This document shows, piece after piece, positions 10,345 through 37,800 of a stretch of 64,000 bases of DNA. This DNA comes from Patescibacteria group bacterium UBA6017. Its GTDB lineage: Bacteria; Patescibacteriota; Saccharimonadia; UBA4664. Below the pieces are notes generated by a model. That model had not been told where the DNA came from. It ran no database searches and saw only the letters and a list, made by a program, of their open reading frames with translations. The stretch spans positions 55,258 to 119,257 of the forward strand of contig DIZX01000011.1 in assembly GCA_002429485.1 (NCBI GenBank). Reading direction: 5' to 3'. The translations under genes were made by a program, and so were the position numbers. Positions within the stretch are counted from its first letter, which is position 1. Each line of letters starts with the position of its first letter.

Positions 10345-10833
10345 TTACTTTACGACCTCAAGCCCGTTGAACAGCTTGCGCCACTGCTCATCCGAAAGGT
10401 CGCGATCCGGCTTCACAAACATCAAAGTACCCTTCGCATTCATCACCGCCGCCTGCTTTCCCTTCAGATCCTTCGGCCGCGTGAGGTGGACCGTACCGCT
10501 ATCACTGTCGAATTTACTGTACTCGTTCATGTTCGTCACTACCTTGTCGTACACCTGCGGGATATCAATAAAACTTTCCGGGGTTGGCTGCTCGCTCACT
10601 ACTGTCTTAACTCCATACGCCGCAACTGTGAAGCTAAGCAATTTCAGCTTCGAATCATAGATCATCGAGTCTCTCGACACCTCAACCTCGCGCACCTGAG
10701 GCACCATAATCGTCGACGTCACCGCGCGCTTGATCTCCACCGGCACCGGTGGCTTTGGCGCCACCAACATCACCCCGATCACCACCAACCCGATGGTCAC
10801 CAAACTACCTATAATCAACCACAACCGTTTCAT
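10345..10833 (-). CDS. small N-terminally membrane-anchored protein, partner of giant protein A
   Basis: Start at MKRLWLIIGSLVTIGLVVIGVML (transmembrane anchor). The C-terminus DEQWRKLFNGLE resembles the C-terminus YDKWAKLLSSME of the ORF at 31260..31805, which likewise follows a giant gene. Confidence 0.5.
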   Translation of the reverse strand: MKRLWLIIGSLVTIGLVVIGVMLVAPKPPVPVEIKRAVTSTIMVPQVREVEVSRDSMIYDSKLKLLSFTVAAYGVKTVVSEQPTPESFIDIPQVYDKVVTNMNEYSKFDSDSGTVHLTRPKDLKGKQAAVMNAKGTLMFVKPDRDLSDEQWRKLFNGLEVVK

Positions 10834-10934
10834 GTAAGTAGCATAACATGACCCGATATATCGACGAACTTCTAGCGCCGCCAACTAGCGAATATTTATT
10901 TTTATCAGTTAAGGTACTGCCAGGCGTGAGGCGG

Positions 10935-13900
10935 CTACCTGATATTAAGTACAGTTGCTACAGAGCCACGGCAATCATCCGTAGCGGCCGTACAGGTGCT
11001 TGAGAAAGCGGATAGTGCTATTCCCAGCGAACCATATCCATTGGCTGGTGCCGGAATTGCAGCCGCCGTGACCGAATATCCGGCGTTCGTCGTTGCACTA
11101 GACTCCAAATTTTGCTGTATGCTCCCGGCGTCAGCCTTGACGAATGCAGGGCCGGCAGTAGCTATGATGGCGTTGATAGTGTTTGCGGTCGTACCTCCGG
11201 CCGTCACAATGAAGACCCCGCGCATACTTGCCAATCCCAGAGTAAGCGCCGGTCGAGTTACCGCTCCAAGCGTGGCGGTTTGTTGTGCGATCATACCCAA
11301 CGCCGCCGCTGTCGTGATGTTATTCACTAGCTCTTTTGTTGTAGTCGTAAATGTTCTGGTGTCATATATAGCAGTGATCTTAGAGCCGTTCACCTTTAGA
11401 TCTGCCAAACAGAGAATGGGTGCAGTAGTCGAGAATGTAGGCAAGTTATTAGTCTCGGACGTCCCGTCTAGTAGCTGTGGTTGATTTGTACTAGCCGTAT
11501 TCAAACAAACATGCGTAAAGTGTCCGGCCGTTAATGTCACTGTCTGATCGGCAGCCTGAGCTGGCACCACCACACGACGACCATTTGAGTATGCAGTGCA
11601 TCCAGTCCAACGAATCTTGGTATTTACCGATCCCAAGTATATCCTGCAGGGACCAGAGGCGGATAGCGTCCCATTCACTCCGACCCAGTCCCCCGGAGTA
11701 GTGCCGCTATCCGGTACTACTCCGAACATTATCAGCCCAGTGTCCTTAGTGGTCACGACGTCACTCCACGAACCATCTTCACACACCCGGACCGAGGGAG
11801 TATTCGTATTTGTGTTGTAATACAGCGCCCCCTGATTAGTCGTCGCATTACACGTCCCGGTATCGGCAAATACGTTCGATGAATCTAATTGCAGATTATT
11901 TTGGGTCGCATCAGCAGCAGTGGCCGAGCCTATCTGAACATTACCGCCCAAGATCGTGTCACCACCTTGAACGTTCAGGCGAGAAGTTCCGGCATCAGCC
12001 ACCCCGATGCCCACATTATCGATGTACGACACTGTTGGCTTCACAAAGGATGTGGTGTCGGTCGTGTAGACTGCCGAAGTATTCATATTCTCAGAAATAG
12101 CCGTTATGCTTCCAGGGTAACCATTAATGGCCTTTACGTCGATAAAGACATCATTCCCGGTCGATACCCGGTGGACGATCTGGATCCGGTAGCGCGAGTT
12201 GGTAGCATCCCAAGTGACATCCGAGATTGCAAAATTGGCCGATGTTGCACCAGATGCATCGCTATAGCGGGAATCGTTATGCCATATCGTACCCCCGGCA
12301 TTCAAACCCAGATAGAAGGTTTTCTGAACCGCACCACCGGCATCCTGATTGATATAGTTACTCGTTAGAGTGACCTCAATCTCCCCGGCAAACTGCGGTG
12401 CAAAATATAGGTCGAACTTCTGATTTGCCACCCCATTTGTAAACGATTTGGTAAAGGTTCGTTCGGCACTGACGCCGCCAACTACGAGCGCATTACCAAT
12501 ACTGACATTGCTGGTCGTCGTATCAACGTTCAACGCCGTAGACGAACCCGCGCCATTCTTGACCGCAAAAGCGGTGGCGGAGTCGAGGCCAGCGTTTGGC
12601 TGGACCAAGGCCGTTCCGGCGACTACTAAGTTAAGGTTATAAGCAGTGCCCCAAGTATTGACTGCATCGCCCGAGGTAATCCCCATGCGCAGTACTTGAT
12701 CGGTTACGTTTGAGTTCGGACCAATTCCCCAGTTGGCGTTACTTGGCCATTGGCCGGTTATCGAGGCATTTCCGGTCGCAGTCGTCGTCCAGTCATCCAT
12801 ATACAAGAAAGCCGGTGTAGTACTACCACTGGAACTACCGATATGCACTGCATTACCTCCGGTGTCGACCGAAAGAACATTGGCGCCCGATGCATTTTGC
12901 ACCGCAAAGGCGGTGGTGGAGTTACTCGCGTTTCTCACCCTCACATAGCCAGCCGTGGCCGCACCGCCGGTTCCGACCGATCCGCCAGCCAAGGTGATGA
13001 TACCGCCGGCACCGCCTAGGGTGGAGCCGTTACCACCGTTTCCGGCCGTCAGGTTAATGTTGGACCCAGCACCGCCGGTGCCATTGATAGCCGCGCCACC
13101 GTTACCACCCTGCAGTAATAGTGTGCCGGCCGCACCGCCCGTTTCACCACCACTAGCACCAGTGGCTGCCCCGCCGTTACCGGTGGTAAATGAGATGGCC
13201 GAACCGGCCCCAGCCGTAGCACCAGCGGTGCTCGTGGTAGCACCACCATTTGGGCCAAGTACGGTCAGGGCGGCCGTAGCGGCCGTGCCAGCACCGGCCG
13301 AAACAGCTGGAATTCCACCAGTGACATATAGCAAGGAGGCTGGTGAAGACGTACCAATACCTACCAAGCCTGCACTGGTAACTTGGAGACCAATTCGGTG
13401 AATCCGGTAAGCAATACCGGGGTTAGATGATACTGTTTGCGAAGTCGCAGTTGTCATCGTTGTACTGGTCGGAACAGTCAGGATAGTAGCTGTCTGGCCA
13501 GTCGCGAATATGAACTGCTCTCCTATCATAGCCGAGGTCCATGATGTGCCCACACCTGTAATGTTGGTAGTCGACTGATAAGCCGTGCCGGTGCTGTAAT
13601 CCAGCGGGGAGACACTAAAGGTGTTAAGCGGGATGGTTGTGCCGATACCAACGTTCGTTGCCGTATCAACCGAACCGAGCACGATACTATTGCTGGCCTG
13701 CACCTGGGCATAGGCACCGAGGGCGGTGGCGTTTTGGAGGGCAGCACCGGTGGCGAACTGGCCGCCGGAGTCTTGGAAGCCAGCTCTCCTACCTAAGGCG
13801 GTGTTATAGCTGCCGGAGGTATTGTTGCGCAGCGTATCATCGCCTACAGCAGTATTATAAGATCCGGAGGTATTCAATATCATTGAAGCATCCCCAAAAG

Positions 13901-16900
13901 CATTATTTGAGGAACCGATATTATTGGCCTGGAGAGCAAAAGTACCAAAGGCATTATTGTAGCTAGCAGTGGTATTGGCGGTGAGGCTATAAGCGCCAAG
14001 AGCGTTGTTGTGTTGACCAGTGGTGTTGGATGTCAGTGCAGACATACCTGTAGCCGTATTGTCGAAGCCGGTCGTGTTATTCAGCAGCGCGCCCCGGCCA
14101 ATGGCGGTGTTCTCATAGCCAGTCTGGTTAAATTGGAGTGCTCGGGATCCGAGAGCGGTATTGTAATTGCCGGTAGTGTTGGACTGCATACTGTAGCTGC
14201 CGATGGCAGTGTTCTCGAAACCAGTCGTGTTAGCCTGGAGCGTGATGTAGCCCAGGGCGGTATTGCGGTAGCCGGTGGCGTTAGCTTGCCCCGAGTTGAT
14301 GCCTATGAAGTTGTTGCTTGGGTCACTGCTAGCCCGGACTTCGATGTTAGCTACTCCACTGGCGTTCTTAACGGTCAAAGCCGAGTTGGTAATACCGGTA
14401 ATCTGTTTGATGGTGACCCCCGAAATAGTCCCCAGCCAGCTGCCCGTCGGGGTGAAGGACAGTTTGTTGGTGTTAACAGTGTTGACGACGTAGCTGTAGG
14501 TGCCATTACAGTTGTCTCCGGTGATGGCTACACCACCCAAGGTCTGGCCACCAATGGCGGCAGTAACTGATTGAGATGAGTTGCCACAGGCCGTCGGCGT
14601 ACTACTGATATTGAAGCTAACTTGGTATGTAGCCCCACTGGTGATGGCGGCCGTGGTGTTGGTGATGGTGGTTGTACCACTAGTGTGGGTAGCTTGAGTA
14701 GAGGTGGTCACATCCCACCCAGTGGTAGTTCCCCATTGGGTGGCGAAGTTGTTAACCCCCATGAGATCCGCACCTAGGGTGGCTGTGTCGGTACCGGCGC
14801 GTACGGTGAGGGTTTGGTTGGTGGTGTCGACGTTTACTACCGGAACGGCGGTGGCATTTTGAATCTGGAAGGATGTGGCGGAGTTTGAAGCTGCCTTCTG
14901 AGTATAATCACCGTTGAGCGAGATACCGGAGCCCTGAACCTTGAACAGGTTGTCAACTCCGCCGTTGCTGCTCGAGATACCAAAATAAGTGTTAGCGCTG
15001 ATGTCCAAAGTCGACATCACTACTTCGTTCACCCCCAGAGAAGTGACGTTCGTGAATGCCACGAAGGTTGGCGTAAACCACGCCTGCTCCGTAGGCTCAA
15101 TTGTGACATATGTGTTCGAGGCACCAGCACTCGTAGAAGATGCCCGAACATCAATATAAGTTAGATCAAGTACTGTATCGTGTACTACTCTCATCCGGTC
15201 ATAGTCAGAAGTACCATTCTGGTTCAACAGAGATACAGTAGCCGTCGACCCCCAGTCAGCCTGAACTAAGAAGGATCTTGAGTTTGGGGTCATCGTACCG
15301 CCAATAGTCGTCAAAGTAACCTTAGCGGCAAATCGGCCATTGTTGGTCGCTCTTGAAGCAATCCGGTACCAATTGCCGCTAGTATTAGTCTGTGCCACAA
15401 CTCCCGTACTTATCCCCTGTGTCAACAGAATGTCGCTGCTAGTCTGAGCTAGCGTACGATATTTCAGTACGCCGCTATCGTTCGTAACGAACCCGGTATA
15501 AGTAGCGTCATCGGCTGTTTGGGGTACAATCACGCTTCCCGCTACAGTATCGACCGATAAAATGGAGGTACCGGCCGCATTTTGGACCCGGAAAGCAGTG
15601 GTTGAGTCATTTCCAGTAGTAGGCTTCACAAGGGCCGTTCCGGCCACCAGCAGGTTAATGTTGCGGGTGGTACTCCAGTCATTGAGGTTATTGGTCCCGG
15701 TCACGCCAAGCCGCACAGTAGAGTCACCAGCATTTGAGTTAGACCCTAGCCCCCAGGAGTTCATGCTGTTCCATTGTCCTACAATGCTGGCGTTACCGGC
15801 GGCATTGCTACTAGCATCGTTCAGGAGTAAGTAAGCCGGTGTAGCAGTACCAGTGCTATTAATTCCAATAACTACCTTATTATTGGAAGTATCAACTGCG
15901 AGAACATTAGCAGCCGAGGCATTTTGGACTTGGAATGCGGTGACGGAATTGGTATTACTCTTAGCAATAATCGAAGCGCTGGCGCTATTGGTGCTTAAGT
16001 TTAAGTTGCCAGTCCCGGCGTTTACGTTGACGGCCGTTGCACCAGTGGTATTACCAAGAGTAATCGTGCCGACATTAGCCGTTCCGATACTTATTGCCCC
16101 GTTCGCCGTCGCGCCGGTACCGGCATCAATCACTACGTTACCGCCGGTGCGGGTACCACTCGCCCCGGTAGCGTTGCCGCCCTGTAGTGTCAATACACCA
16201 CCGACGGCAGTGGTAGTACCGCTTTCGTTACCAGCCCTAAGGGTCAGGGCTGCTCCGGTAGCTGCCGCCGAAGTATTATTCCCCGGCTGAAACACCAAGG
16301 CCGTCGGAGCCGTCCCGGCCAAGGTGGTAATGTCGGCCGTTTGGGCTCCCGCCAAGGTTAAGGCTCCCAGGTTGTCTATTTTGAACTTCGACACTCCGTT
16401 GGCCTGGAGGTCTAGGAAAGCCCCCGAGGCAAACGAGCCCGAACCGTTGGCTACGTTCACTAGCAAAGCCGTGCCGGTGTAGGCTGAGGTGGACTGGCTC
16501 ACACTCAGTAAGGTAGCGCTGGTGGCCCCGGTATTTGAGGTGGTGATGTTGCCCGCATTCTGGGTTTGCTGAATATCTACCGCCTGAGCCGCCGTGCCAC
16601 TCGTCCCCTTCACGGTCAGACCCACTACGCTGTTGACTGTCGGCGTAATGGTGTTTTGGGCAGTCGAGGTGGGGGCTTGGAGAATACACGTGATACAGGT
16701 GTTGGCCGACCCGGCGTTCACCGCGTACACTGCACTGCCTATCCGGCGCATCGGCAGCATTTCCCCGTCCGGCGTACAGCTCGAGAAGGGCGTGCAACTG
16801 GAAGTCGTGTTGGCGCCGCCCGCGATGTTCGTAGACAGCCACAGCACCGGCTGGTTGAGGTCAATCCCCACTAAAGTCGTGATTGAGCCCAAATTCACGG

Positions 16901-17279
16901 AGAAGTAACCGTTCTTCACTGTCACTCCGTTACTGGCATTATTTAACCATTCTTCAGTCCACTGCAAAGTACCAGCCGTGCTCTGACAATCTGGCAGGGT
17001 TGCACAGGCACTATCGGTGGCCACCAACCCATCACCATTCTTGTAGATCTTGAACTGCATATTGTAATTTCCATCAGCAACAACGGCCCCAGCCGCGTTC
17101 AGCAGCCGACCCTGGTAGTTCACTTTATTGTTGATGCCAGCGCTCGGGGCCACGGCCTGCGCCGGACTAGCCGGCACTATCCCACTCAAGCCAAATAGCC
17201 CGACCAGTGTCAGGAGCGGTGCTATACGTGAGATAAATGTTTGGACTCTTCGCCTGAAAATTAGGCTCGAAATGATCAC
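10935..17279 (-). CDS. giant secreted surface protein A (2114 aa) with YadA-head-like 14-residue repeats
   Basis: Signal peptide. Its N-terminal domain is shared with giant B (QGRL.NA.G..V.DGNYN.QFKIY...GTLQWTEEWL...NLGSIT). It has a long run of 14-aa N-T-A-x-G repeats (NTAIGSYSMQSNTTGNYNTALGSRAL...) and repeated NVLAVDTSNNKVVIGI-type segments. Confidence 0.75.
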   Translation of the reverse strand: MIISSLIFRRRVQTFISRIAPLLTLVGLFGLSGIVPASPAQAVAPSAGINNKVNYQGRLLNAAGAVVADGNYNMQFKIYKNGDGLVATDSACATLPDCQSTAGTLQWTEEWLNNASNGVTVKNGYFSVNLGSITTLVGIDLNQPVLWLSTNIAGGANTTSSCTPFSSCTPDGEMLPMRRIGSAVYAVNAGSANTCITCILQAPTSTAQNTITPTVNSVVGLTVKGTSGTAAQAVDIQQTQNAGNITTSNTGATSATLLSVSQSTSAYTGTALLVNVANGSGSFASGAFLDLQANGVSKFKIDNLGALTLAGAQTADITTLAGTAPTALVFQPGNNTSAAATGAALTLRAGNESGTTTAVGGVLTLQGGNATGASGTRTGGNVVIDAGTGATANGAISIGTANVGTITLGNTTGATAVNVNAGTGNLNLSTNSASASIIAKSNTNSVTAFQVQNASAANVLAVDTSNNKVVIGINSTGTATPAYLLLNDASSNAAGNASIVGQWNSMNSWGLGSNSNAGDSTVRLGVTGTNNLNDWSTTRNINLLVAGTALVKPTTGNDSTTAFRVQNAAGTSILSVDTVAGSVIVPQTADDATYTGFVTNDSGVLKYRTLAQTSSDILLTQGISTGVVAQTNTSGNWYRIASRATNNGRFAAKVTLTTIGGTMTPNSRSFLVQADWGSTATVSLLNQNGTSDYDRMRVVHDTVLDLTYIDVRASSTSAGASNTYVTIEPTEQAWFTPTFVAFTNVTSLGVNEVVMSTLDISANTYFGISSSNGGVDNLFKVQGSGISLNGDYTQKAASNSATSFQIQNATAVPVVNVDTTNQTLTVRAGTDTATLGADLMGVNNFATQWGTTTGWDVTTSTQATHTSGTTTITNTTAAITSGATYQVSFNISSTPTACGNSSQSVTAAIGGQTLGGVAITGDNCNGTYSYVVNTVNTNKLSFTPTGSWLGTISGVTIKQITGITNSALTVKNASGVANIEVRASSDPSNNFIGINSGQANATGYRNTALGYITLQANTTGFENTAIGSYSMQSNTTGNYNTALGSRALQFNQTGYENTAIGRGALLNNTTGFDNTATGMSALTSNTTGQHNNALGAYSLTANTTASYNNAFGTFALQANNIGSSNNAFGDASMILNTSGSYNTAVGDDTLRNNTSGSYNTALGRRAGFQDSGGQFATGAALQNATALGAYAQVQASNSIVLGSVDTATNVGIGTTIPLNTFSVSPLDYSTGTAYQSTTNITGVGTSWTSAMIGEQFIFATGQTATILTVPTSTTMTTATSQTVSSNPGIAYRIHRIGLQVTSAGLVGIGTSSPASLLYVTGGIPAVSAGAGTAATAALTVLGPNGGATTSTAGATAGAGSAISFTTGNGGAATGASGGETGGAAGTLLLQGGNGGAAINGTGGAGSNINLTAGNGGNGSTLGGAGGIITLAGGSVGTGGAATAGYVRVRNASNSTTAFAVQNASGANVLSVDTGGNAVHIGSSSGSTTPAFLYMDDWTTTATGNASITGQWPSNANWGIGPNSNVTDQVLRMGITSGDAVNTWGTAYNLNLVVAGTALVQPNAGLDSATAFAVKNGAGSSTALNVDTTTSNVSIGNALVVGGVSAERTFTKSFTNGVANQKFDLYFAPQFAGEIEVTLTSNYINQDAGGAVQKTFYLGLNAGGTIWHNDSRYSDASGATSANFAISDVTWDATNSRYRIQIVHRVSTGNDVFIDVKAINGYPGSITAISENMNTSAVYTTDTTSFVKPTVSYIDNVGIGVADAGTSRLNVQGGDTILGGNVQIGSATAADATQNNLQLDSSNVFADTGTCNATTNQGALYYNTNTNTPSVRVCEDGSWSDVVTTKDTGLIMFGVVPDSGTTPGDWVGVNGTLSASGPCRIYLGSVNTKIRWTGCTAYSNGRRVVVPAQAADQTVTLTAGHFTHVCLNTASTNQPQLLDGTSETNNLPTFSTTAPILCLADLKVNGSKITAIYDTRTFTTTTKELVNNITTAAALGMIAQQTATLGAVTRPALTLGLASMRGVFIVTAGGTTANTINAIIATAGPAFVKADAGSIQQNLESSATTNAGYSVTAAAIPAPANGYGSLGIALSAFSSTCTAATDDCRGSVATVLNIR
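13780..14330. repeat. roughly 42-bp periodic coding repeats (the YadA-head-like / Hep_Hag-like 14-aa repeat array) inside giant gene A
   Basis: About 13 iterations of an N-[TY]-A-[LIA]-G ... [AS]-N-T-[TS]-G unit in the translation. Coordinates are approximate. Confidence 0.5.
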
Positions 17280-17372: not shown

Positions 17373-18329
17373 TCACACGCCCTGGACGTTCTGCTTTCTA
17401 AGCTTGCTAATCTCCCGCCGTTCGCCGAGCCAGAAGAAAATTACCATCACCAATGCCAACAGATACAGCGGCCAAGCTGTGAGTAAAATCCCCGGCAATG
17501 CCCCCAGTCCTTCACCCTTGGTTCCCCCCGATGAATTCACCGGGCCGTTCACTACCGTAATCATTTGCAGGAAAGCTCCGTTGCCCTGCGCATCCGTGAC
17601 CCGCAAAATCACCCGATACGTCCCCGGCCGATCATACACATGCTTACTTGCCACTTGACCGTCTGCACCCTGGCTCACCAGCGTGGTATTACCGTCGCCC
17701 CAATCCCAACTCACCGCGTACGGCGGAACACCGCCCACGATCGTCGCCGAACGACCCGCCTCCTGGCCTGGATTCACCCCGAGCACAGTAGTACTGACCT
17801 CCAGAAACAACTGACGTCCAGTGGAGCCGCCGGGTAAATTCAAGCTTGGTGCGTCATAAAACACGTTGACTGCCGCCGAATCGGGCCCAAACTGCCCCAA
17901 AGCATCCGACACCTTAGCAACCAGCACATTTGAACCATCAAATAAATCAATTAGTAACGAAAATGTACCATCGGTATCGCACGGCGTCACGCCGCCAAAT
18001 ACGCCATTCTTCGTAATATTCACAAACGTATTTGCCGGACATGTCCCGGAAACGGTAATCGGAATGGTGCCCGTACGAGTGCCGGTACGCGGGCTCACAA
18101 TCACCGCCGCCGTAGTCGGTGCCGGACCCCTCACTGTCCCGCTCAATCCCACCGAACCCGACTGCGGATTCACCGCCGGAGTTGCTGCCTGAGTGGCCAG
18201 GCTCGAACCGAGCAATAAAATGCCTACCAAAATCAAGGCAAAAAACAACCCGGGATACGAGGTATGGCGATGGTGCCGTACCTTCCCGGAATGTTCATGG
18301 GGCACGAGCTGTAGTAAACCGGCTTTCAT
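17373..18329 (-). CDS. PKD-domain membrane protein with two transmembrane helices
   Basis: N-terminal and C-terminal hydrophobic helices. PKD signature WDWGDGNTT...HVYDRPGTYRVILRVTDAQGN. The tail WLGERRE is shared with the ORF at 47016..47996. Confidence 0.65.
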   Translation of the reverse strand: MKAGLLQLVPHEHSGKVRHHRHTSYPGLFFALILVGILLLGSSLATQAATPAVNPQSGSVGLSGTVRGPAPTTAAVIVSPRTGTRTGTIPITVSGTCPANTFVNITKNGVFGGVTPCDTDGTFSLLIDLFDGSNVLVAKVSDALGQFGPDSAAVNVFYDAPSLNLPGGSTGRQLFLEVSTTVLGVNPGQEAGRSATIVGGVPPYAVSWDWGDGNTTLVSQGADGQVASKHVYDRPGTYRVILRVTDAQGNGAFLQMITVVNGPVNSSGGTKGEGLGALPGILLTAWPLYLLALVMVIFFWLGERREISKLRKQNVQGV

Positions 18330-18352
18330 GCCTTTAGTTTAGCACAAACGTA

Positions 18353-19345
18353 TTACCGGTGTCGGCGAGCTTGCGCAATGATGTGATCGTTGTAGCGGCG
18401 CAAGGCCATCTTGAGTACGAAGAAGAGGACAATCAGGCCAATCAGTCCGAGCAGAATCAGCTTCCACGGAATTACCCAGAACCCGATTTTGCCCGTAAGC
18501 GTCTTGCCGCTCGAGTAGTTCAATACCAACGCCGCCGTATAGTGACCAAATAATTGCTTATTGCTCAGACTACTCTCAAACCGGCGCACACTGTCCGGTA
18601 GCACATTGCCACCCTTCTCATTCACCGCTACAGATCCAATTTTCTTACCAAACGTATCTTTAACTTCAATTGCCCCCGTCACCTTCTCGTGAACGCTACC
18701 CTCGTTGCGAACGCGCACCAGGAAGTCGACCGGGCCGTGTTCAAAAAAGCTTTGCTTACTAAACACTACTGGTGATACCTGCATACCAGAAGTAAATTCT
18801 GCCAAACTCACCTTTTCGGTGATAATACCGCTGACTTTGAGCAAGATCAACGCCCCGACACTAGCTGACAGAGCCACGCCTGCGCCCGCTAGGTTCGGAG
18901 GCACGGCCGTAAACCGCACAACCCCAAAGTGACCGCCCGGCTCTGCGTTAGCCGGCACGACGATCTTTATAGTGGTGGTCTTGAGGTCCCCAGGGGCCAA
19001 TTGTAGGTCAGGTACGGTCTGGATCCAATATTTCAATGAAAAGTGCGTTGAACCAGTTTCGTCGAGGAGTAATTTCGGTTGGCCGCTCTCGTCTGATCCG
19101 GCACCAAAATCATCCGCCTTCCCTTTGGCTATCAACTCCCCTTGAGTCACGTTGCGCACACGGATACTGGCCGTCACAGTCTGGCCTGGGTTAGCTGACA
19201 ATTCCATCACCGGCGGAGAAATCTCCAGACCCTGACCAGGCGAACCAGCATCAGCCGCATTAGCTGTAGCAGCCCCAAACAAAGGACCGGCCGCCAATAG
19301 GCAGGTCATCAATCCGAAAACAGCATTCTTGTACCACTTACTCAT
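18353..19345 (-). CDS. membrane-tethered protein with two Ig-like domains (Ig-TM1); candidate chaperone-like or DUF916-like component
   Basis: Signal peptide, about 260 aa of predicted beta-rich ectodomain, then a C-terminal transmembrane segment and basic tail (WVIPWKLILLGLIGLIVLFFVLKMALRRYNDH...). The motif GGHFGVVRFTAVPP followed by the alternating-hydrophobic VALSASVGALILLKV recalls the F1/G1 region of PapD-type chaperones. The architecture also matches WxL-locus DUF916/DUF3324 proteins. Confidence 0.6.
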   Translation of the reverse strand: MSKWYKNAVFGLMTCLLAAGPLFGAATANAADAGSPGQGLEISPPVMELSANPGQTVTASIRVRNVTQGELIAKGKADDFGAGSDESGQPKLLLDETGSTHFSLKYWIQTVPDLQLAPGDLKTTTIKIVVPANAEPGGHFGVVRFTAVPPNLAGAGVALSASVGALILLKVSGIITEKVSLAEFTSGMQVSPVVFSKQSFFEHGPVDFLVRVRNEGSVHEKVTGAIEVKDTFGKKIGSVAVNEKGGNVLPDSVRRFESSLSNKQLFGHYTAALVLNYSSGKTLTGKIGFWVIPWKLILLGLIGLIVLFFVLKMALRRYNDHIIAQARRHR

Positions 19346-19384
19346 TGCAATTAGTGTATAGCATAAGTTTAATAATACGAAAAG

Positions 19385-20416
19385 TTAGAAGCTTGCTGTA
19401 CAGATATAAGTCATCGTCGAAGTATAAACGCCTGCCGCTTGCGCGCCGCCGATATTCACGATGTAGCTCGATGTAAAAGTATTCGCATTTGTCGGTAAGC
19501 CAGCCTGAGCCACACTATCGCCGCTGCCAAAACGATACGAATTCGCCGTACCATATGTCCCGCTGAACGTTCCACTCCCAACACCTGTCGGGTCGGCCCC
19601 CACCGCCGGAGATGCATTAGAACGTAAGTTTAATCCAAACTGACTCGTACCTATCGCGCTGACCGTTTGCGCAGCTAAAGCCGGTATTGTATTCACCCCA
19701 GACGCCAAAGTGCTGCCGTTTATCGTCACCGTATAGCCGTTCGCGGCATTAGTCTGAGCCTGCATAACGCTCGTGCCGCTTCTCGTCAGTACCGGCGAGA
19801 AATCTCCAAAATCAATAGTATTGCCAGCTACCGTAGTACAATCAGGACCGATTGAGGTTCCAACGCAGAATACTAATATCTCAGGGGTCACCCCGGTAAG
19901 CTGTACTGGCTGCGCCGTACTCATAGCTACCGTTCCGGTATCCGTCACACCCGTCGCTCCATCACCGCCCGTGTAAGTCGAGATGCGCACGAAGTATGAA
20001 GTATTTGTCGCTGATGGATTCGTAATCGTGCCTAACGTATAGCTCAGCGCTGTCCCAGAGTTTAGATTAACTGCACCTCGCGTAATGTACGGTGCCCCAT
20101 TAGCCCCATTCACTATCGCGAATCCCACTGCTCCGCTTTGAGCCGTAAGTGTGGCACTCGTCGTTACTACACCGGCCGGCATCGCGCAGACGCCCGTAGG
20201 CGCCGAACATAACTCAAATTTAATCGAGCCGATATTGGCAGTCGTAGCAGTGGTCGCATTCACGGTATAGTTAGTTGTCGCGCCCTGAGCGCTCGAACCC
20301 ACCTGCACATTGCGCGGGGAGAGCCCGGCAGCTGATGTACTCAAAGGGGCTAATATCAGCGCCAGGACGGCTATCCGCCGTAGGCTGTGCGAGGAAGTTT
20401 GGATTAAATGCTTCAT
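19385..20416 (-). CDS. secreted tandem-domain SCPU/Csu-pilin-like protein (P1)
   Basis: Signal peptide. Two modules, each with a Cys pair (IKFELCSAPTGVCAMP; LVFCVGTSIGPDCTTVAGNTIDFGDFSPV) and a terminal strand motif (YFVRISTY; AQAAGVYTSTMTYICTASF). These resemble the CsuA/B features TGCTVGG..NKFGTLNFG and AQGDYKDTLLVTVNF. Confidence 0.6.
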   Translation of the reverse strand: MKHLIQTSSHSLRRIAVLALILAPLSTSAAGLSPRNVQVGSSAQGATTNYTVNATTATTANIGSIKFELCSAPTGVCAMPAGVVTTSATLTAQSGAVGFAIVNGANGAPYITRGAVNLNSGTALSYTLGTITNPSATNTSYFVRISTYTGGDGATGVTDTGTVAMSTAQPVQLTGVTPEILVFCVGTSIGPDCTTVAGNTIDFGDFSPVLTRSGTSVMQAQTNAANGYTVTINGSTLASGVNTIPALAAQTVSAIGTSQFGLNLRSNASPAVGADPTGVGSGTFSGTYGTANSYRFGSGDSVAQAGLPTNANTFTSSYIVNIGGAQAAGVYTSTMTYICTASF

Positions 20417-20443
20417 GCTATGTTTGTTTCCGTTATGCTTGTT

Positions 20444-21532: not shown

Positions 21533-21608
21533 TTCTATTTGTACCCATATTCATAATGCTTATGTAAACATTACTACTCCGTGATCGATTGAGTCAAGGA
21601 CAGTTGAG

Positions 21609-22595: not shown

Positions 22596-22793
22596 GCAAA
22601 TACCGTACAGCATAAGCCAGATCAATACAACCAAGCCCAAGCGTCTTTCTTCAAGTTAAATACCAATCCACGATTCCGGCGCAAATGTATATCTGCATCA
22701 CAATGTAGCGCCAGCTATCGTAGTTCCGTGTATGTTTGCATGCGTACGCCACAACGTAGGGCTTATCCATTGTTGGCCTTCAGTTAGAGATAA

Positions 22794-22824
22794 GCAAAAT
22801 AGCTCCTCGCCAGGAAGCTATTTG
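22794..22824 (-). terminator. possible attenuator or terminator hairpin between P3 and Ig-TM2
   Basis: Inverted repeat aaatagct(N11)agctattt, about 60 nt downstream of the P3 stop on the transcribed strand. Confidence 0.3.
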
Positions 22825-31836: not shown

Positions 31837-34800
31837 TTACTTGCCCTTCATCGTGAATGTTATCTGGCTGGCGTAGGCGTAGGCATTGTTCTTGGAAGAC
31901 ATATCCACCCTGAAGGTCACAATGTCGTTGGGGGCAAAGGTACATGTGGTGGCTTCGTTTCCATTGTAGGCAACCGTCTGCCAGGTGTTGTTGGAGGTGG
32001 TGACCGTAGTTGTACCGGCAGGGTTGCCGCCGCACTCTGTGCCATCGTTCTGGAAGACAGCGTACGCAATGCTCGCGTCCGTCGTGGATGACACCCGGCC
32101 CACCATCTGGATGGTACTGTCACTCGCAAAGCCTCCGAACGTCGGCGGCAGCTGGTACTTCACAAAGATGCTGTAGGTTTGAGCCGTCACCTGGGAAGTA
32201 GTCCAGCGGTAGAAGTTGTATTCCTCAGTAGAGGCACAGATCGTGCCTTCTGTCGCTTGGATACTCATGCGACTCGAACCGGAGCAGATGTTGGCGGTCA
32301 CTGTACCAATGTGCGTGTCGGCGCCCAAGCCCGGGTTCAAAACGGCGCCGGCGTATTCTGGCTCCAAGATCAGGTTGCTATCTGGCGCCGCACCACATGA
32401 GCCCCAGCCGTCGATTTCATAGCATTGAATGCGGCCGAGCGTGGTGTCGTAGTACATCGAGCCGTACAGATCTTGGTTGACGGTGCCCGTAAAAGGCACG
32501 GCCGCAAAGGTGTCGAGCGTGAGTAGCGTTAGGCCCTGGCTCAGCGGCCCGCCCACCCGCAACGAGCCTGTGTTCTTGGTGCCGGTGGTGTTTTGCGCCA
32601 CCACCGCCAGGTTGTCGATGTAGATGTGGGCGATGGTCGATGCGTCAGTCTTACTAATTCGTAGGAAGTTGCCCGTGGTCTGACCCGACGCGCTAGTAGT
32701 GAAGTAACAGGTGTATTTGAAGAAGCCGGTGGAATTGACCGTGCCGTTGGTCGGCACGTTGCAGGTGGCGTCGAGGGTGGGAGTGGCATCTTTGTAGTAC
32801 TGCACCGCGATCGTCGGCGTCCCCGACGAAGACTTAATGTTGAAGCTCACGGCGTAGAGCCGGCTGCTAGTCAGGGCCGTAGCGCTAAGTGCGTTGTTGG
32901 CGCCCCCGGTACCCGTCCCGGTTATGGCTACATCAACCGAACCGATTCCCGAAGCTAGGTTAGCGGCAGTGACGTTCTGCGTTATGGAGGCGCTACCCGT
33001 ACCGGTGAAAGCCGTCCACCCCGTCACTCCGCCTACCTCCACGCCTCCGTTTGAAGCCAGGTTGAAACCGGTCGCAGTATTGGTGGTGTCGATGGAAATC
33101 ACCGGAGCGGCGGCGCTGTTACCCACTTGGAATACGTTAGCGTTGTCATCGCCCACACCCGCCTGGAACAGTATGTTCTTTGTGGTCGAGGTCGTAATGA
33201 TCGAGGCCGGCGCTGTCGAAGTGTTGTTATACACCTGCTGTAGTGAGCTGGCCGTGGTGGTGCCACTCCAGGCGGTGCCGTTCCAGACCAGCGTAGCGGT
33301 GTTGCCGGAGCTCATGTTCACGCCCGACATACCGGTGGCCGCCAGCGTAAATGCCACCGAGCTGGAACCCGCCGACACGTATACCACCCGACCGGCAATA
33401 GCATTAGTCGGCGAGGGCATGGTGATAGTAGCTCCGGTGAAAGCACCGGCCACGTTCATGACGACCGTGCCGTAGGTGTTGAGGTTGGTCAGCAATGCCG
33501 GATCAGTGCCCGAGTTAAATGCTTGATTATTGCCCGTCTGGGTAAACGTCTCGCTGACCGAGGTAAATACCGGGGAACCGATCTTCACCACACCAGGGAT
33601 ACCGTTGGTTCCGGTCTTAGCTCCGGCAGTCAAAGTGATGTTACCGCCGTCATTGTCATTACTCCCCGCCGCACTCCCCGCCTGCAGCGTGATATTGCCA
33701 CCGGGCCCGACGCCGTTGGCTGCCGACGAACCGCCGTTGGCCGCCGAGATCACCACGAAACCGCCTGCCCCGGTCGCCGAAGCCGCCCCGCCCGCCAGGG
33801 TCGTCATCCCGCCTGTACCCGTACCGGTAGAGGCGCCGCCCTGCACGGTCACGGCGCCGCCGGCTGTATTGCCCCCGCCGGCTGCCCCACCCTTGAGTGA
33901 TGCAGCGCCACCAACGCCGCTGGTCCCGCCGGCGCCGCCCACCAAAATCAGATTTCCGCCCGTCCCTGAGGTATTTCCAGCCGCCGATCGCACCGTGAGT
34001 GCGGCTCCGGCCGTGGCCACAGTTGTCTGATCGGCCACCGCTATTATCCGGTCGGCGCTCATGCCCAGCTGCAGATCTATTCCGCTCTGCAATGCTGGGT
34101 TCTGGGCCGTCCCACCCACGTTTACTCCCAGGCCGTAGCTGCTCACCGAAAATATTGAATTGCCCAAAGTATCACTCGTGTGCGCATCACGCACTCCAAA
34201 GATCTCTTGTCCTGCCGACATCCCTGAAGCGATCGCCGACTGCACCGTAAGTGCCTTATTTGCCGCGGTCTCGAGTATACTCGGCGCCGCCCCAGACGAA
34301 TTGTTGTAAGCGCCCTGCAAATTTGTCGAAACCGCCCCGCCGTTGGTCCAGTTTGTACCGTCGTACACAAACATCTGCGAATTACCAACCACCAAAGTTT
34401 GACCCAAAATGGTTATCGCGTTCGTAGAGGCAGATAGGTTATTGATGTAGATGATAGAGCCTGCGCCAGCCGTCGGTGATGCTATCGCAGATATTGTGGT
34501 GGCACCAGTATCGGTAATTGTAAATGCCGTACAGTCATTCACTGTCTTACCGGCGGTAGTCAAAGTGATTGTGCCCGACACCCCCGTGTATGCACAAACC
34601 ACGTTCTGTGTCGCGCCATTATTTTTAAACAGCGTAGCGCTCGCCACCGTTCCCACGGTTGTGCTGCCATTTATGGTCGTAGTGTTGGCAGTCTTTCCAA
34701 TCGACACCGCGTTGGCCGTGCTCGTGCCCAAGTTGAGCTGCGAAGCGCTAATGGTGTCGAACAAGGGGGCCGTAAAACTCGTGTTGGCCCGTCCAGTTAG

Positions 34801-37800
34801 GGTAATGCGGAAGCTTCCCGTCTGATCTGCCGAGCTCTGGTTTTGAATGCCGTTATTGTCAGCCCCCGCAAAAGTCCAAGTTCCTACGCCGTTAACATTG
34901 GCCCACACCAACGTGGCCGAACTCCCGGCCGAGACGGTGGAGCCCAATATGCTAAAGCTCGTGGTACCCGTGTTCGTTATATATACGATGCGCCCGTACG
35001 TTCCACTGGCGGACGGCGTTGGCGGAGTGAGCGTTTGGCTGCCGGTCAGCTGGTGAGCTGCGATATAGGTATAAATATCAACCGTAGCTGCAGCACCGCC
35101 TGCATCCCATCCGCCGCCCGACAAGTCGGCCATTGTGTAGACGCTGTTCACCGTTGAGCCGTTGTTCACGAGCGCCCCGCTGCCGGCGGCGTTGCCGATA
35201 AGGGCGGTGCCGTTGGTCTTCACGGTCGTGGTCGACTTGCCGAGCGTCACACTGGTGGCCGTGCCGGTGCCGATGCTGATGCCGACCGCCGAGTCGATAT
35301 TGCCGGCCATCGTCAGGTTGCCACTGGCGTCCACTGCAAACCTGCTGGTCGGCGCGGCACCGGCCTGCAGGTCGAGCAGGTTGCCCGACGGCGCGGCGTT
35401 GGTGTCGCTGGCAAATATTAAAGCGTTGCCGGCTGCCGGGTTCAGGGTGCTGGTCACTTTGAGCGCGTTACCGGTGCCGCCATTAGTCAGCGTCAGCACA
35501 TTGGCCGAAGAGCCGGAGTTGGTGTTGGTGAAGTCGTAGAAATCGCCCGCCACTCCCCCGCTCGAGGTCTCGGTGGCTGTCTGGTTCTTGGCCAAAAAGC
35601 CACCGGTGCTCGGCAACGCAGTACACGAACCGCCCACCACGAGGCCGCCGGACGCCTGGAACAAGCTCACGTACTGGCCCGCGCCACAGGCACCGAAGCT
35701 GCTGCCGCTCGTGCCGCCAACTGAGAATCCGGAGGTAGCATTGGCCACGCCCGCGGATGTCACCTTGAACTCCGAGTTGTTATTATTCTGCAGGTTGAGT
35801 AAATCGGCCGTGGTGGCGCCTGAAGTGTTGAGGCCGATATAAGTACCGTTGACGCTACCGCTCGAAATGGCGGCGCCGCCAATCTGGACTAGTGAGCTTG
35901 CATTGCTCACGGCCGGCGCCCCGCTGACTATCAGCTCAGCCGCGCCCGTGCCTGTGACCGAGAGTACGCTGGTGACCCCCAGCGTACCTGTGACACTCGA
36001 ATTGCCGGTGATACCTGCGCCGCCAGCGCTCACCGTGAGCGCACCGGCCTCGGTCACCGTTCCGGTGAAGTTCGCCGCGCTCGAAATCCGCTGGCCGTTG
36101 AGCGTGTCGGTGGTGCTCGTGCCGCCCGACTGAGTCGCGTTCCCGTTCATGTCCACTGCAAACCGGCTGGCCAGCGTGGCCGACTGCGTACTTTGCAGAT
36201 CGAGTAAGTTGCCCGTGGCGTTGTTTAGAGTGTTGCTCGCAAAGATCGTGGCGTTACCGGCGTTCAAGTTGGCCGCCGAGGTCACCGACAAGGCCGAGTT
36301 CAGCCCGGAGCCGTTACTAATCGTCAGTACGCTCGTACTACCCGAACCGCCGTTATTGAGCGTCAGCAGCGAGTGGCCGCTCGTGGTCACCGTGACGTTA
36401 TCGGTCTCCTCCACGCCTTTGCGGATGTAGCCGGTGCTCGAATCGCAAGAGCCGACCGCGTCAGTACAGATCAAGTAACTACCGGTTGTCACTGATCGGT
36501 CGAGATTATACGTCACCGCTCCGGTTGGGCTACCCGTAAAAGCCAAAGTAGTCGTAAAGCCGCCTCCGGTTGCGCTCAAAGAAGTTGAGGCATTACCTTG
36601 CAGTGTCAATTGCTGGCCAGTCGCCCCGATGGTGAGCGTGCCAGTGGGCGTAATCGTATTCGTCTGCAGCGTACCAACCACATTCAGCTGCCCGCTCACC
36701 GTCGCCTGTGAGTTGAGCGTATCCACCGCAAATTGGGTCACTCCGGCGGCATTTTGCACGCTCAACGCCGTCGTGGAGTTCTCGGTGTTTTGCAGCATGA
36801 TCGGCGAGCTCACTGCCGTATCAACCTGCAGCGTACCCGCGCCGTAAGCATTCGCAACGTTGCTCGTCTGCTCCAGCTGCACGCCGTCCAGGTAGAATGT
36901 GCGGGCTGCCCCGGCAGTCTGACGGATCACGATATAGGCGCTGGCGTTTCCGGCCGTGGCCGAGGAGGTGAACGTACACGTCACCCGCGTCCAGCCGCCA
37001 CTCACCACCGTCTGCGTATTGTAACTACTACAAGCCGTTTCTGTACCAGCCGTGCCGTCGCGCGAATAGGCCGCCGCAACGTCGGCAAATGCCGGGTCGC
37101 CGGTCTTAAGTTTGGCGTAGAAGCTCACCGTGTACGCCGTGCTCGCGCTCAGCGCCGCGCCCAAATTGTTCTGCGCGCCCCGGGTCGCCGTCGATGGCGC
37201 CACCACCACGCTCACCGACGCCGCCCCATTCCAAGCATTGCTGGTATTGCGCGCCACCGTCGTGTTGGTGCCATAGGCAGCCCACTCACTGCCAAATGCT
37301 ACTTCTGCGCCCGGGTTCAGGATTAGATTGGTGTCGTTCGTGCCCACCCCGAGCACCGCCGCACCCTGCCCGTTTTGAATCTGCAGAGCGGTCGCCGTAT
37401 TGCCCGCCGAGCTGGTACCGGTCCGAATAGCATCGCCGGTATTGCTCAATGTCTCGCTCAACGCTCCTGCCTTCGAAGTCACCGTGCTGCCCGAATTCGT
37501 CGATCCGGCCGTTATCGATTGGGCGTTCGTGGCATCAGTGCCAACCGCAATCGTGTGCGCCGCCGCGTTCGTACCAATGTTGATCGCGGTACCGCCCTGG
37601 TTGCCCAGGTTCAGATTGGCCGTAGCATATACCCCGAGATCACCCGCGCTCGTCCCCCACAATGAAGCCGCGGCCGCTGTTAGCGTCAGGGCCCCGGCCG
37701 AAGTCGTAAACGACGATGCCGCGTTTGCGCTCAGGCTCACTGCCCCGCCCGATTGCGTCACCGCACCACCCGCTACCGTCAACGACTTGCCGCTAAGTAT

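What the first reader, a model, noticed from the sequence alone, without database searches (positions are those of the whole stretch)
10935..17279. Giant protein A has YadA-head-like 14-residue repeats; giants A and B share an about 190-aa N-terminal domain
In giant A, residues around the 13.8-14.3 kb DNA region form about 13 consecutive 14-aa units with N-T-A-[IL]-G ... N-T-T-G periodicity. This is the hallmark of the left-handed beta-roll head of trimeric autotransporter adhesins (Hep_Hag).

Here the repeats occur in a protein with a signal peptide but no autotransporter anchor.

Both giants begin with the same domain (INxKVNYQGRL/INSAINFQGKL ... GTLQWTEEWL ... NLGSITTL/SL ... MLP). That domain may be the cell-attachment or export-recognition module of this family.
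Basis: partly seen in the sequence, partly recalled or inferred. Interest (0 to 1): 0.55.

Follow-up and report, generated by a model that had tools for sequence, protein, structure and literature searches.

The report
Tail-fibre-type repeats in giant Saccharimonadia protein
A 2114-residue secreted protein of an uncultured Saccharimonadia (TM7) bacterium carries a 17-residue repeat block of the kind found in phage tail fibres, not a YadA adhesin head, and it shares with its neighbour a very widespread, unnamed N-terminal domain that marks a family of large mosaic surface proteins.

Summary
Giants A (10935-17279, minus strand) and B (31837-39726, minus strand) do share an N-terminal domain: 42% identity over 193 residues, E = 4e-38.

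The repeat block is real and lies where stated, but its period is 17 residues, not 14. There are 11 gap-free units at residues 990-1176.

It is not a YadA/Hep_Hag head:
- Pfam YadA_head scores 14.7 bits against a cut-off of 25, and only on the short cap after the array.
- A profile of the 17-mer finds nothing in the PDB.
- The same profile scores 0.1-1.4% hhalign probability against genuine YadA-type heads, which match each other at 92-98%.

The repeat belongs to a very large family (more than 4,377 proteins). It occurs in phage tail fibres and tailspikes and in bacterial "tail fiber domain-containing" proteins. AlphaFold2 models it as a beta-solenoid that superposes well only on right-handed beta-helices.

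The N-terminal domain is an Ig-like sandwich with no Pfam family. It always follows the signal peptide. It has 1,872 cluster representatives at E <= 1e-30, nearly all named ones from Saccharimonadia.

The proteins carrying it are mosaics, and they sit in conserved clusters of envelope-protein genes.

Most likely giant A is a modular surface fibre or adhesin. This is ordinary in kind, and its N-terminal module is undescribed.

The parts
10935..17279 (-). Giant A gene, 2114 aa. T+A+G+S+N make up 58% of residues and charged residues 8%. No Pfam, NCBIfam or PDB sequence match on the whole protein.
17154..17279 (-). Residues 1-42: basic stretch, the only hydrophobic segment of the protein, then PASPAQA/VA. 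Read as a Sec signal peptide or N-terminal membrane anchor.
   Evidence: for hydrophobicity. One search shows the same layout in 39 homologues. Cleavage is inferred, not shown.
16710..17153 (-). Residues about 43-190: conserved N-terminal Ig-like beta-sandwich domain shared with giant B. It defines a large family found almost only in Saccharimonadia.
15525..15962 (-). Residues about 440-585: first copy of an internal module of about 140 aa. It contains the recurrent 'STTAFxVQNAxGxxVLxVDT' motif.
   Evidence: 55% identity to the second copy, E = 9e-44
13752..14312 (-). Residues 990-1176: 11 gap-free 17-residue repeats with consensus N-T-A-[LI]-G-x-x-[AS]-L-x-x-N-T-T-G-x-x. Predicted beta-solenoid with one coil per repeat.
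   Evidence: period; AlphaFold2, pLDDT 84-95; family; fold
13644..13751 (-). Residues 1177-1212: C-terminal cap of the array, with two YadA-like units of about 14 residues (NATALGAYAQVQAS / NSIVLGSVDTAT), then NVGIGTT.
   Evidence: YadA_head 14.7 bits, below cut-off; hhalign 2-13% to trimeric-autotransporter heads, reversed-sequence controls up to 1.9%
13365..13643 (-). Residues 1213-1305: small domain that travels with the repeat block in relatives.
   Evidence: co-inherited in L002, L065, L028, L059; weak match to phrog_9942 tail fibre protein, E = 0.003; AlphaFold2 confidence is low here
12495..12944 (-). Residues about 1446-1595: second copy of the 140-aa internal module.
10938..11912 (-). 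Residues about 1790-2114: A-type C-terminal domain, a candidate distal or ligand-binding end. Its distribution is narrow.
   Evidence: 19 homologues, all unnamed or Saccharimonadia; no PDB relative
31837..39726 (-). Giant B gene, 2629 aa. It has the same N-terminal domain (residues about 52-181, 39184-39573), a CBM_4_9 domain (residues 800-934), and a B-type C-terminal domain shared with 27 of 79 related loci.
17373..18329 (-). Gene immediately upstream of giant A: a PKD-domain protein with a C-terminal transmembrane anchor. It is a candidate membrane partner. Its paralogue lies at 47016-47996.
   Evidence: Searches find a homologue directly upstream on the same strand in 37 of 70 related loci that have enough upstream sequence.
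18353..19345 (-). Secreted protein with a C-terminal transmembrane anchor and weak similarity to the peptidoglycan-binding domain of WxL-interacting proteins. Paralogues lie at 21609-22640, 41631-42698 and 40674-41630.
   Evidence: paralogy; PF06030 at E = 0.005-0.11 in 3 of 4 paralogues, below cut-off; conserved position

Best explanation
Giant A is a Sec-exported, mosaic, fibre-like cell-surface protein of a Saccharimonadia (TM7, Patescibacteria) bacterium.

Its repeat block is a beta-solenoid of 11 coils, about 5 nm long if each coil rises 4.8 A. The repeat is the 17-residue type common in phage tail fibres and tailspikes and in bacterial 'tail fiber domain-containing' proteins. Here it serves as one rigid shaft module among several.

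The constant N-terminal Ig-like domain sits directly behind the signal peptide. It is the proximal end and most likely holds the protein at the envelope. Either the uncleaved signal anchor helps with this, or the domain docks onto the co-encoded membrane-anchored PKD protein or the peptidoglycan-binding-like proteins.

The variable middle modules and the alternative C-terminal domains form the distal end, which binds a target. For an epibiont that target is presumably a host-cell surface structure.

Shown: the repeat type, the domain homology, the mosaic architecture and the synteny. Inferred: export, tethering, oligomeric state and ligand binding.
For: Repeat type:
- The period is 17.
- PHROG tail-spike and virion-structural families match at E = 1e-30 to 6e-34.
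- More than 4,377 homologues were found. Most carry a C-terminal Peptidase_S74 or Peptidase_G2 intramolecular chaperone.
- 103 phage records match, annotated as tail fibre, tailspike or virion structural protein.
- AlphaFold2 gives pLDDT 84-95 with one strand every 17 residues.

N-terminal domain:
- A against B gives E = 4e-38.
- A profile search finds 22,175 cluster representatives at E <= 1e-3 and 1,872 at E <= 1e-30. The match is at the N-terminus in all 150 listed, in proteins of 180-4533 aa.
- In 79 genome loci it is preceded by only 21-80 codons of open frame.
- The record titles are almost all Saccharimonadia.

Mosaicism:
- The N-terminus is constant. The B-type C-terminus occurs in 27 loci, the A-type in 2 plus L002, and the 17-mer block in about 5.

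Context:
- A PKD transmembrane gene lies directly upstream in 37 of 70 loci. A WxLIP-like gene lies 1-3 kb upstream in 31 of 63. A Kelch protein lies downstream in 22.
- The window is chromosomal, with RF1, ParAB, IleRS-type synthetase, FtsW/Z/A and signal peptidase I.

Literature:
- Epibiotic Saccharibacteria need several surface adhesins (PMC10633639).
- Very large surface-targeted proteins are typical of Patescibacteria and are read as adhesins (PMC11809585, PMC13059738).
Against: - No experimental or structural evidence shows that the N-terminal domain binds anything.
- The PKD transmembrane neighbour is present in only about half of the loci.
- No adhesion or carbohydrate-binding domain is detectable in giant A itself. 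Only giant B has CBM_4_9.
- Giant A lacks the intramolecular chaperone that accompanies this repeat in most relatives, so its oligomeric state is open.
- The handedness of the solenoid rests on rmsd values of a monomer AlphaFold2 model, not on coordinates I could inspect.
- Foldseek found no significant PDB match.
Confidence: 0.55

Rival explanations
1. One reading: the block is a YadA-type (Hep_Hag) left-handed beta-roll head, so giant A is a trimeric-autotransporter-like adhesin adapted to a cell without an outer membrane.
For: - The N-T-A-[IL]-G motif resembles N-S-V-A-I-G.
- The cap gives a weak YadA_head match of 14.7 bits and 2-13% hhalign probability to real heads.
- JGI's pipeline names some homologues 'trimeric autotransporter adhesin'.
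Against: - The period is 17, not 14.
- The Pfam hit is below cut-off and lies off the repeats.
- The 17-mer profile finds no PDB sequence at E <= 10.
- hhalign gives 0.1-1.4% to three genuine heads, against 92-98% among those heads.
- The rmsd to UspA1 is 9.2 A, against about 3 A to right-handed helices.
- No stalk, neck or anchor domains were found.
- None of the 120 listed homologues carries PF05658.
Confidence: 0.06
2. The gene is phage-derived in the strict sense: a prophage or tailocin tail-fibre (receptor-binding) gene rather than a cellular surface protein.
For: The repeat block, and weakly the small domain after it, match phage tail fibre and tailspike families.
Against: - Only about 300 of the 2114 residues are phage-like. 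The other eight segments and the N-terminal domain have no PHROG match at E <= 0.01, apart from one 19-residue match (E = 0.0048) to a family of unknown function.
- The protein has a signal peptide, which virion proteins normally lack.
- The neighbours are housekeeping and envelope genes, with no capsid, terminase or baseplate genes.
- The N-terminal domain and the gene order are conserved across many Saccharimonadia genomes.
Confidence: 0.04
3. Giant A is an enzyme: a tailspike-like beta-helix depolymerase that cuts host-cell-wall or capsule polysaccharide, rather than a passive fibre.
For: - The related L002 giant carries a separate PbH1-like 'NNTITGNT' beta-helix.
- The epibiotic lifestyle needs access to the host envelope (PMC10633639).
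Against: - A coil of 17 residues is too slim for the loops and grooves that form active sites in 22-25-residue pectate-lyase-type coils (inference).
- No catalytic family was detected.
Confidence: 0.1
4. The N-terminal domain is not an anchor. It is either an export or quality-control recognition module, analogous in role to the TPS domain of FhaB/HMW1, or it is itself the ligand-binding part.
For: - It has a fixed position right after the signal peptide in a family of giant exoproteins, as TPS domains do.
- Two conserved Cys pairs suggest an extracellular folded unit.
Against: - The fold is an Ig-like sandwich, not a TPS beta-helix.
- No dedicated transporter gene was seen among the neighbours scanned.
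- A strongly conserved N-terminus combined with varied C-termini is the usual layout for a proximal attachment end, as in phage fibres (established knowledge).
Confidence: 0.15

Closest known systems
Bacterial and phage 'tail fiber domain-containing proteins' with NTAxGxxALxxNTTGxx repeats and a C-terminal Peptidase_S74 or Peptidase_G2 intramolecular chaperone (PHROGs 6002, 4636, 23837)
   Same: They have the same 17-residue repeat and consensus. Identity is 35-55% over the block, with E down to 1e-71. The 14-residue cap and the NVGIGTT motif that follows are also shared.
   Different: Giant A has no intramolecular chaperone domain. It is 4-5 times longer. The block is internal rather than the main body of the protein. 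Giant A also has a signal peptide and the Saccharimonadia N-terminal domain.
YadA-like heads of trimeric autotransporter adhesins (Pfam PF05658; YadA, UspA1)
   Different: The period is 17 against 14. No HMM or profile-profile relationship was found. The model fits right-handed helices. There is no neck, stalk or beta-barrel anchor. Saccharibacteria are regarded as lacking an outer membrane (established knowledge).
Giant surface proteins of Patescibacteria reported as putative adhesins (PMC11809585, PMC13059738) and the essential adhesins of Southlakia epibionticum (PMC10633639)
   Same: These are very large, secreted, low-complexity, modular proteins in episymbiotic ultrasmall bacteria. Relatives differ by domain reshuffling.
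   Different: The published examples are defined by FhaB, DUF2341, FN3, VCBS or dockerin domains. Giant A has none of these. It is defined instead by an unnamed N-terminal domain.
WxL surface-protein gene clusters of Firmicutes (WxL proteins plus WxL-interacting proteins, PF06030)
   Same: The upstream genes encode signal-peptide proteins with a C-terminal transmembrane anchor. They show weak, full-length PF06030 similarity in 3 of 4 paralogues. They are clustered with other small secreted paralogues.
   Different: All PF06030 scores are below cut-off. No WxL domain was detected. The large protein in this cluster carries a different N-terminal domain and no WxL C-terminus.
TPS domain of two-partner-secretion exoproteins (FhaB, HMW1), as a functional analogy only
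   Same: It is a conserved module of about 150-250 aa directly after the signal peptide of giant fibrous exoproteins.
   Different: The fold is an Ig-like sandwich rather than a beta-helix. No TpsB-type partner was found, and there is no outer membrane.

Membership tests
Trimeric autotransporter adhesin, YadA-like head (Hep_Hag, PF05658) | 14-residue repeat (NSVAIGxxSxAxxx) | tested here: not met
   The period is 17. Identity at lag 17 is 0.48 against 0.058 at lag 14. Only two cap units have spacing of about 14.
Trimeric autotransporter adhesin, YadA-like head (Hep_Hag, PF05658) | Pfam YadA_head match at or above the gathering score | tested here: not met
   The segment scan gives 14.7 bits against a cut-off of 25, E = 0.042, at residues 1182-1203 only. 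There is no hit on the whole protein.
Trimeric autotransporter adhesin, YadA-like head (Hep_Hag, PF05658) | Profile-level homology to genuine heads | tested here: not met
   hhalign of the 17-mer profile against YadA, an E. coli YadA-like head and an Acinetobacter head gives 0.1-1.4%. The positive controls give 92-98%. The profile finds no PDB sequence at E <= 10.
Trimeric autotransporter adhesin, YadA-like head (Hep_Hag, PF05658) | Left-handed parallel beta-roll | tested here: inconclusive
   The AlphaFold2 monomer model superposes at 2.8-3.4 A on right-handed helices, and at 9-12 A on UspA1 and left-handed beta-helix proteins. I could not inspect the coordinates, and no trimer model was made.
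Trimeric autotransporter adhesin, YadA-like head (Hep_Hag, PF05658) | Coiled-coil stalk and C-terminal YadA_anchor beta-barrel | tested here: not met
   No Pfam hit on the whole protein or on nine segments. The C-terminus has no hydrophobic or barrel signature.
17-residue tail-fibre-type repeat proteins ('tail fiber domain-containing protein') | NTAxGxxALxxNTTGxx consensus in gap-free 17-residue register | tested here: met
   There are 11 units. The consensus is identical in 30 in-register blocks taken from 29 homologues plus giant A, with 63% mean column identity.
17-residue tail-fibre-type repeat proteins ('tail fiber domain-containing protein') | Significant sequence match to family members or phage families | tested here: met
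   PHROG matches at E = 1e-30 to 6e-34. More than 4,377 proteins match at E <= 1e-3, the best at 2e-71. 103 phage records match.
17-residue tail-fibre-type repeat proteins ('tail fiber domain-containing protein') | C-terminal intramolecular chaperone (Peptidase_S74 or Peptidase_G2) | tested here: not met
   It is present in most listed homologues and absent from giant A.
17-residue tail-fibre-type repeat proteins ('tail fiber domain-containing protein') | Homotrimeric fibre | not testable with these tools
   This needs a multimer prediction or biophysics.
Saccharimonadia N-terminal-domain large secreted proteins (unnamed; no Pfam entry) | Domain with NFQGRLL...YN..FKIY...WTE...VKNGYFSVNLGS...GEMLP motifs directly after a signal peptide | tested here: met
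   Both giants carry it. The profile search puts it at the N-terminus in all 150 listed hits. In 79 loci the upstream open frame is 21-80 codons.
Saccharimonadia N-terminal-domain large secreted proteins (unnamed; no Pfam entry) | Gene cluster with a PKD transmembrane protein and WxLIP-like proteins upstream | tested here: met
   Giant A: 17373-18329 and 18353-19345 lie directly upstream. The arrangement is conserved in about half of related loci.
WxL-type surface gene cluster | WxLIP_PGBD (PF06030) protein and WxL-domain proteins | tested here: inconclusive
   PF06030 scores E = 0.005, 0.037 and 0.11 over nearly the full profile in 3 of 4 paralogues, all below cut-off. No WxL domain hit was found for the other small proteins.

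The most novel reading that the evidence does not exclude
The unnamed N-terminal Ig-like domain is the docking handle of a display system specific to Saccharimonadia and not yet described.

In this reading, membrane-anchored PKD and peptidoglycan-binding-like proteins form a conserved socket, together with small secreted paralogues and a Kelch beta-propeller protein. Interchangeable giant fibres plug into that socket. Those fibres are built from shuffled modules, including tail-fibre repeats taken from phages.

This would be the host-attachment organ of these epibionts. Module swapping at the distal end would set host range, much as in phage receptor-binding proteins.
Probability: 0.2. Interest if true: 0.7.

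Novelty: new variant of a known kind. Interest (0 to 1): 0.4.

Why it matters
How uncultured Saccharimonadia recognise and hold on to host cells is largely unknown. Apart from type IV pili, only a few adhesins in cultured oral strains have been implicated.

This analysis removes a misleading label: the repeat is not a YadA head. It shows instead that the same repeat is a standard shaft module of phage tail fibres, reused here inside a cellular protein.

It also defines a very large N-terminal domain family with no annotation (1,872 cluster representatives at E <= 1e-30). That domain and a conserved gene neighbourhood tie many different giant proteins together. This gives a concrete, testable candidate for the proximal attachment end of Saccharimonadia surface fibres, and a handle for finding them in metagenomes.

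The protein as a whole is still an expected kind of object for this phylum.

Tried and rejected
- **Whole-protein scans.** Pfam, NCBIfam, PHROG and PDB scans of giants A and B gave almost nothing. The repeat block only scored once it was scanned as a separate segment, so the whole-protein negatives were uninformative.
- **PDB search with the homologue alignment.** The profile hit only the intramolecular-chaperone part of the homologues, which giant A lacks.
- **Foldseek of the repeat model against the PDB.** Nothing was significant.
- **Self-BLAST for internal repeats.** It returned nothing. A direct pairwise comparison was needed to show the duplicated 140-aa module.
- **Tandem Repeats Finder on the DNA.** It found nothing.
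- **tRNA and Rfam scans of the window.** They found nothing.
- **Literature searches.** Searches for the 17-residue repeat, for YadA-like heads in tail fibres and for WxL clusters in Saccharibacteria found no relevant paper.
- **PF26696.** It is listed for many homologues but could not be identified, because the local Pfam copy does not report it.
- **Prophage origin.** Rejected from the gene context.
- **A 'CBM-like' label for residues 835-965 of giant A.** Considered from the look of the sequence and dropped, because no profile supports it.

Full report
**What is there**

The ORF at 10935-17279 (minus strand) encodes a 2114-aa protein, giant A. The ORF at 31837-39726 (minus strand) encodes a 2629-aa protein, giant B.

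Both are rich in T, A, G, S and N (58% in A) and poor in charged residues (about 7-8%). Each has a single hydrophobic segment, at the N-terminus. In A this segment is followed by an Ala-X-Ala type site (PAQA/VA). Neither has an LPXTG-type signal or a C-terminal hydrophobic signal.

The window is ordinary chromosome. It carries RF1 and PrmC, an HtrA-type protease, an LCP-family protein, signal peptidase I, ParA/ParB, a class I tRNA synthetase, FtsW, FtsZ, FtsA and methionine aminopeptidase. I saw no phage genes. tRNA and Rfam scans of the window found nothing.

**The repeat block**

- N[TN]AxG recurs at residues 1006, 1023 ... 1159.
- Residues 990-1176 (DNA 13752-14312) split into 11 units without a single gap.
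- Identity at lag 17 is 0.48 and at lag 34 is 0.46. At lag 14 it is 0.058. The best lag in 2000 shuffles never exceeded 0.21.
- The consensus is N-T-A-[LI]-G-x-x-[AS]-L-x-x-N-T-T-G-x-x.
- Only the short cap after the array (NATALGAYAQVQAS / NSIVLGSVDTAT, residues about 1182-1207) has 14-residue spacing.
- There is no DNA-level tandem repeat, so the array is old.

**Is it a YadA/Hep_Hag head?**

I tested this four ways.
- Pfam: there is no hit on the whole protein. On the isolated segment, YadA_head gives 14.7 bits (cut-off 25, E = 0.042). It covers only the cap, not the 17-mers.
- PDB sequences: I built a clean profile of six in-register units from giant A and 29 homologues (A3). It finds no PDB sequence at E <= 10. 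The PDB holds several solved trimeric-autotransporter heads.
- Profile comparison with genuine heads: I fetched real head sequences from plasmid records. They were YadA of Yersinia enterocolitica, an E. coli YadA-like protein and an Acinetobacter adhesin. hhalign of the 17-mer profile against them gives probabilities of 0.1-1.4%. The three heads match each other at 92-98%. Reversed-sequence controls give at most 0.05% against the 17-mer profile. The cap alone reaches 2-13%, against up to 1.9% for its reversed controls, which is marginal.

I conclude that the block is not a member of the YadA-head family. The resemblance is at the level of a short motif.

**What the repeat is**

Scanned on its own, the segment matches phage families:
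- phrog_6002, virion structural protein, E = 6e-34;
- phrog_4636, tail spike protein, E = 1.3e-30;
- phrog_23837, E = 1.1e-29.

Most of the 120 listed carry a C-terminal Peptidase_S74 or Peptidase_G2 intramolecular chaperone, and some a T9SS sorting domain. Sources name them 'tail fiber domain-containing protein', 'Chaperone of endosialidase' or, from JGI's automatic pipeline, 'trimeric autotransporter adhesin'.

A translated search of phage genomes finds 103 records. They include Pelagibacter, Roseobacter, cyano-, Bacillus SPO1-like and Escherichia phages. The matches are annotated as tail fibre, tailspike or virion structural protein, at 34-48% identity.

The S74 domain is known to aid trimerisation and then cleave itself off (PMC12143355). 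Giant A has no such domain, so its oligomeric state is open. I found no paper describing this 17-residue repeat in the searchable library.

**The shared N-terminal domain**

A and B align at 42% identity over 193 residues, E = 4e-38. No Pfam, PHROG or NCBIfam model covers the domain.

The family is very large. An exhaustive profile search finds 22,175 cluster representatives at E <= 1e-3, 7,893 at E <= 1e-10 and 1,872 at E <= 1e-30. In all 150 listed, the match is at the N-terminus, in proteins of 180 to 4533 aa. The weakest of the 22,175 may owe something to the signal-peptide part of the profile.

In species-representative genomes, a single peptide pattern recovered 125 confirmed copies. Nearly all came from records titled Saccharibacteria, Saccharimonadales or Saccharimonadia. 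In 79 loci the open frame upstream of the domain is only 21-80 codons long. Complete genes run 326-3300 codons from the start of the domain, with a median of 1131.

**Mosaic architecture**

Across those loci:
- All share the N-terminal domain.
- About 27 share giant B's C-terminal domain.
- Only 2, plus locus L002, share giant A's C-terminal domain.
- About 5 share the 17-mer block.

The 2725-aa protein in L002 shows the shuffling clearly. It has the same N-terminal domain (46% identity) and a PbH1-like 'NNTITGNT' beta-helix that A lacks. It then has A's block 'globular domain + 17-mers + cap + small domain' (55% identity over 529 aa), joined directly to A's C-terminal domain (49% identity).

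Giant A also contains an internal duplication of a 140-aa module (55% identity, E = 9e-44). A's C-terminal domain has only 19 detectable relatives, all unnamed or from Saccharimonadia, and no PDB relative.

**Gene context**

Each giant ends a minus-strand cluster of small secreted paralogues.

Directly upstream of A is a PKD-domain protein with a C-terminal transmembrane anchor (17373-18329). Before that come proteins with a signal peptide, a C-terminal anchor and weak, near-full-length similarity to the peptidoglycan-binding domain of WxL-interacting proteins. PF06030 scores E = 0.005-0.11 in 3 of 4 paralogues, all below cut-off. A third family ends in ...YICTA[ST]F.

Downstream of B lies a 1533-aa Kelch-repeat protein.

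This order is conserved elsewhere:
- A PKD transmembrane homologue sits directly upstream on the same strand in 37 of 70 loci with enough sequence.
- A WxLIP-like gene sits 1-3 kb upstream in 31 of 63 loci.
- A Kelch protein lies downstream in 22 loci.

**Most likely mechanism**

Shown: the repeat type, the domain family, the mosaicism and the synteny.

Inferred: Sec export, then a fibre whose constant N-terminal Ig-like domain is the proximal end held at the envelope. It could be held by an uncleaved signal anchor, or by docking to the co-encoded PKD transmembrane or peptidoglycan-binding-like proteins. The shaft would be made of interchangeable beta-rich modules. One of them is the 11-coil solenoid, about 5 nm long at 4.8 A per coil. 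The variable distal end would bind a target.

A constant proximal end with a variable distal end is also the design of phage receptor-binding proteins. The reading fits what is known of the group. Epibiotic Saccharibacteria need several surface adhesins (PMC10633639). Very large surface-targeted proteins, differing by domain reshuffling, are typical of Patescibacteria (PMC11809585, PMC13059738).

I put about 0.55 on this overall picture. I am near certain of the repeat classification and of the domain homology, and put about 0.4 on the anchoring role.

**Verdict**

The finding is partly right as an observation and mostly wrong in its main interpretation. The object is an expected kind for this phylum: a giant mosaic surface protein. 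Two things are worth keeping. First, a phage-fibre shaft repeat is used inside a cellular protein without its usual chaperone. Second, a very large N-terminal domain family with no annotation has a conserved gene neighbourhood.

Noticed in passing
window 17373-24928 and 40674-47996 (minus strand): There are two parallel clusters of small secreted paralogues upstream of the two giants. The families are: PKD transmembrane proteins (17373-18329 and 47016-47996, 40% identity); WxLIP-like proteins (18353, 21609, 41631, 40674); a family ending in ...YICTA[ST]F (19385, 20444, 22885, 24119); and a family ending in VVGAGNF (42708, 43917). None has a Pfam hit above cut-off.
   Followed up: partly
window 19385-24928; C-termini of the four paralogues: The C-terminal motif AGVYT[AS]T[LM]TYICTA[ST]F looks like the end of WxL domains (G-x-Y-x-x-x-L-x-W-x-L, from memory), with Y and C in place of W and L. 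Pfam found no WxL domain, and I did not run a profile-profile test.
   Followed up: no
window 26600-31201 (minus strand); L001 13257-17075: A 1533-aa Kelch-repeat protein lies downstream of giant B. A Kelch protein follows the N-terminal-domain gene on the same strand in 22 related loci. The L001 homologue carries a long Gly-rich insert.
   Followed up: partly
window 25953-26558 (minus strand): An IS200-like Y1 transposase (PF01797, E = 9e-12) lies between the two surface-protein clusters, next to the Kelch gene.
   Followed up: no
window 10345-10884, 31260-31805, 46288-47019; L002 2755-3243: Small single-pass membrane proteins follow each giant. They look related by eye (…SEQPTPES… / …SQQKTPEE…; …W[RA]KL…). 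BLAST does not link the window's three copies at 1e-4. In L002 a close homologue of 10345-10884 sits upstream of the giant instead.
   Followed up: partly
L002 3410-11587, residues about 560-760 of the 2725-aa protein: The related giant carries a run of 'NNTITGNTxxGN' units of about 22 residues, which is the PbH1 right-handed beta-helix pattern. Giant A lacks this. It shows whole-module swapping within the family.
   Followed up: partly
giant A residues about 1815-1840; giant B residues about 2420-2445; L002 giant residues about 395-420: A short motif G-x-[LMI]-YY-[ND]-T-...-[CY]-x-x-x-x-W recurs near the start of the C-terminal domains of both giants and inside the L002 protein. I did not identify it.
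   Followed up: no
window 39653-40663 (plus strand) against 39726 (start of giant B): A DUF2207 membrane-protein ORF on the opposite strand overlaps the annotated GTG start of giant B by 74 bases. B may really start at the Met 21 codons downstream (MVTKAF...), which would cut the overlap to about 11 bases.
   Followed up: no
method note: giant A as a whole against residues 990-1224 alone: The whole-protein PHROG scan missed the repeat block entirely. The isolated segment scored E = 6e-34. Low-complexity giants need to be scanned in pieces.
   Followed up: yes
table: Many homologues of the repeat carry PF26696, a Pfam family that the local Pfam copy does not report. It may already describe this 17-residue repeat or the region next to it.
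   Followed up: no
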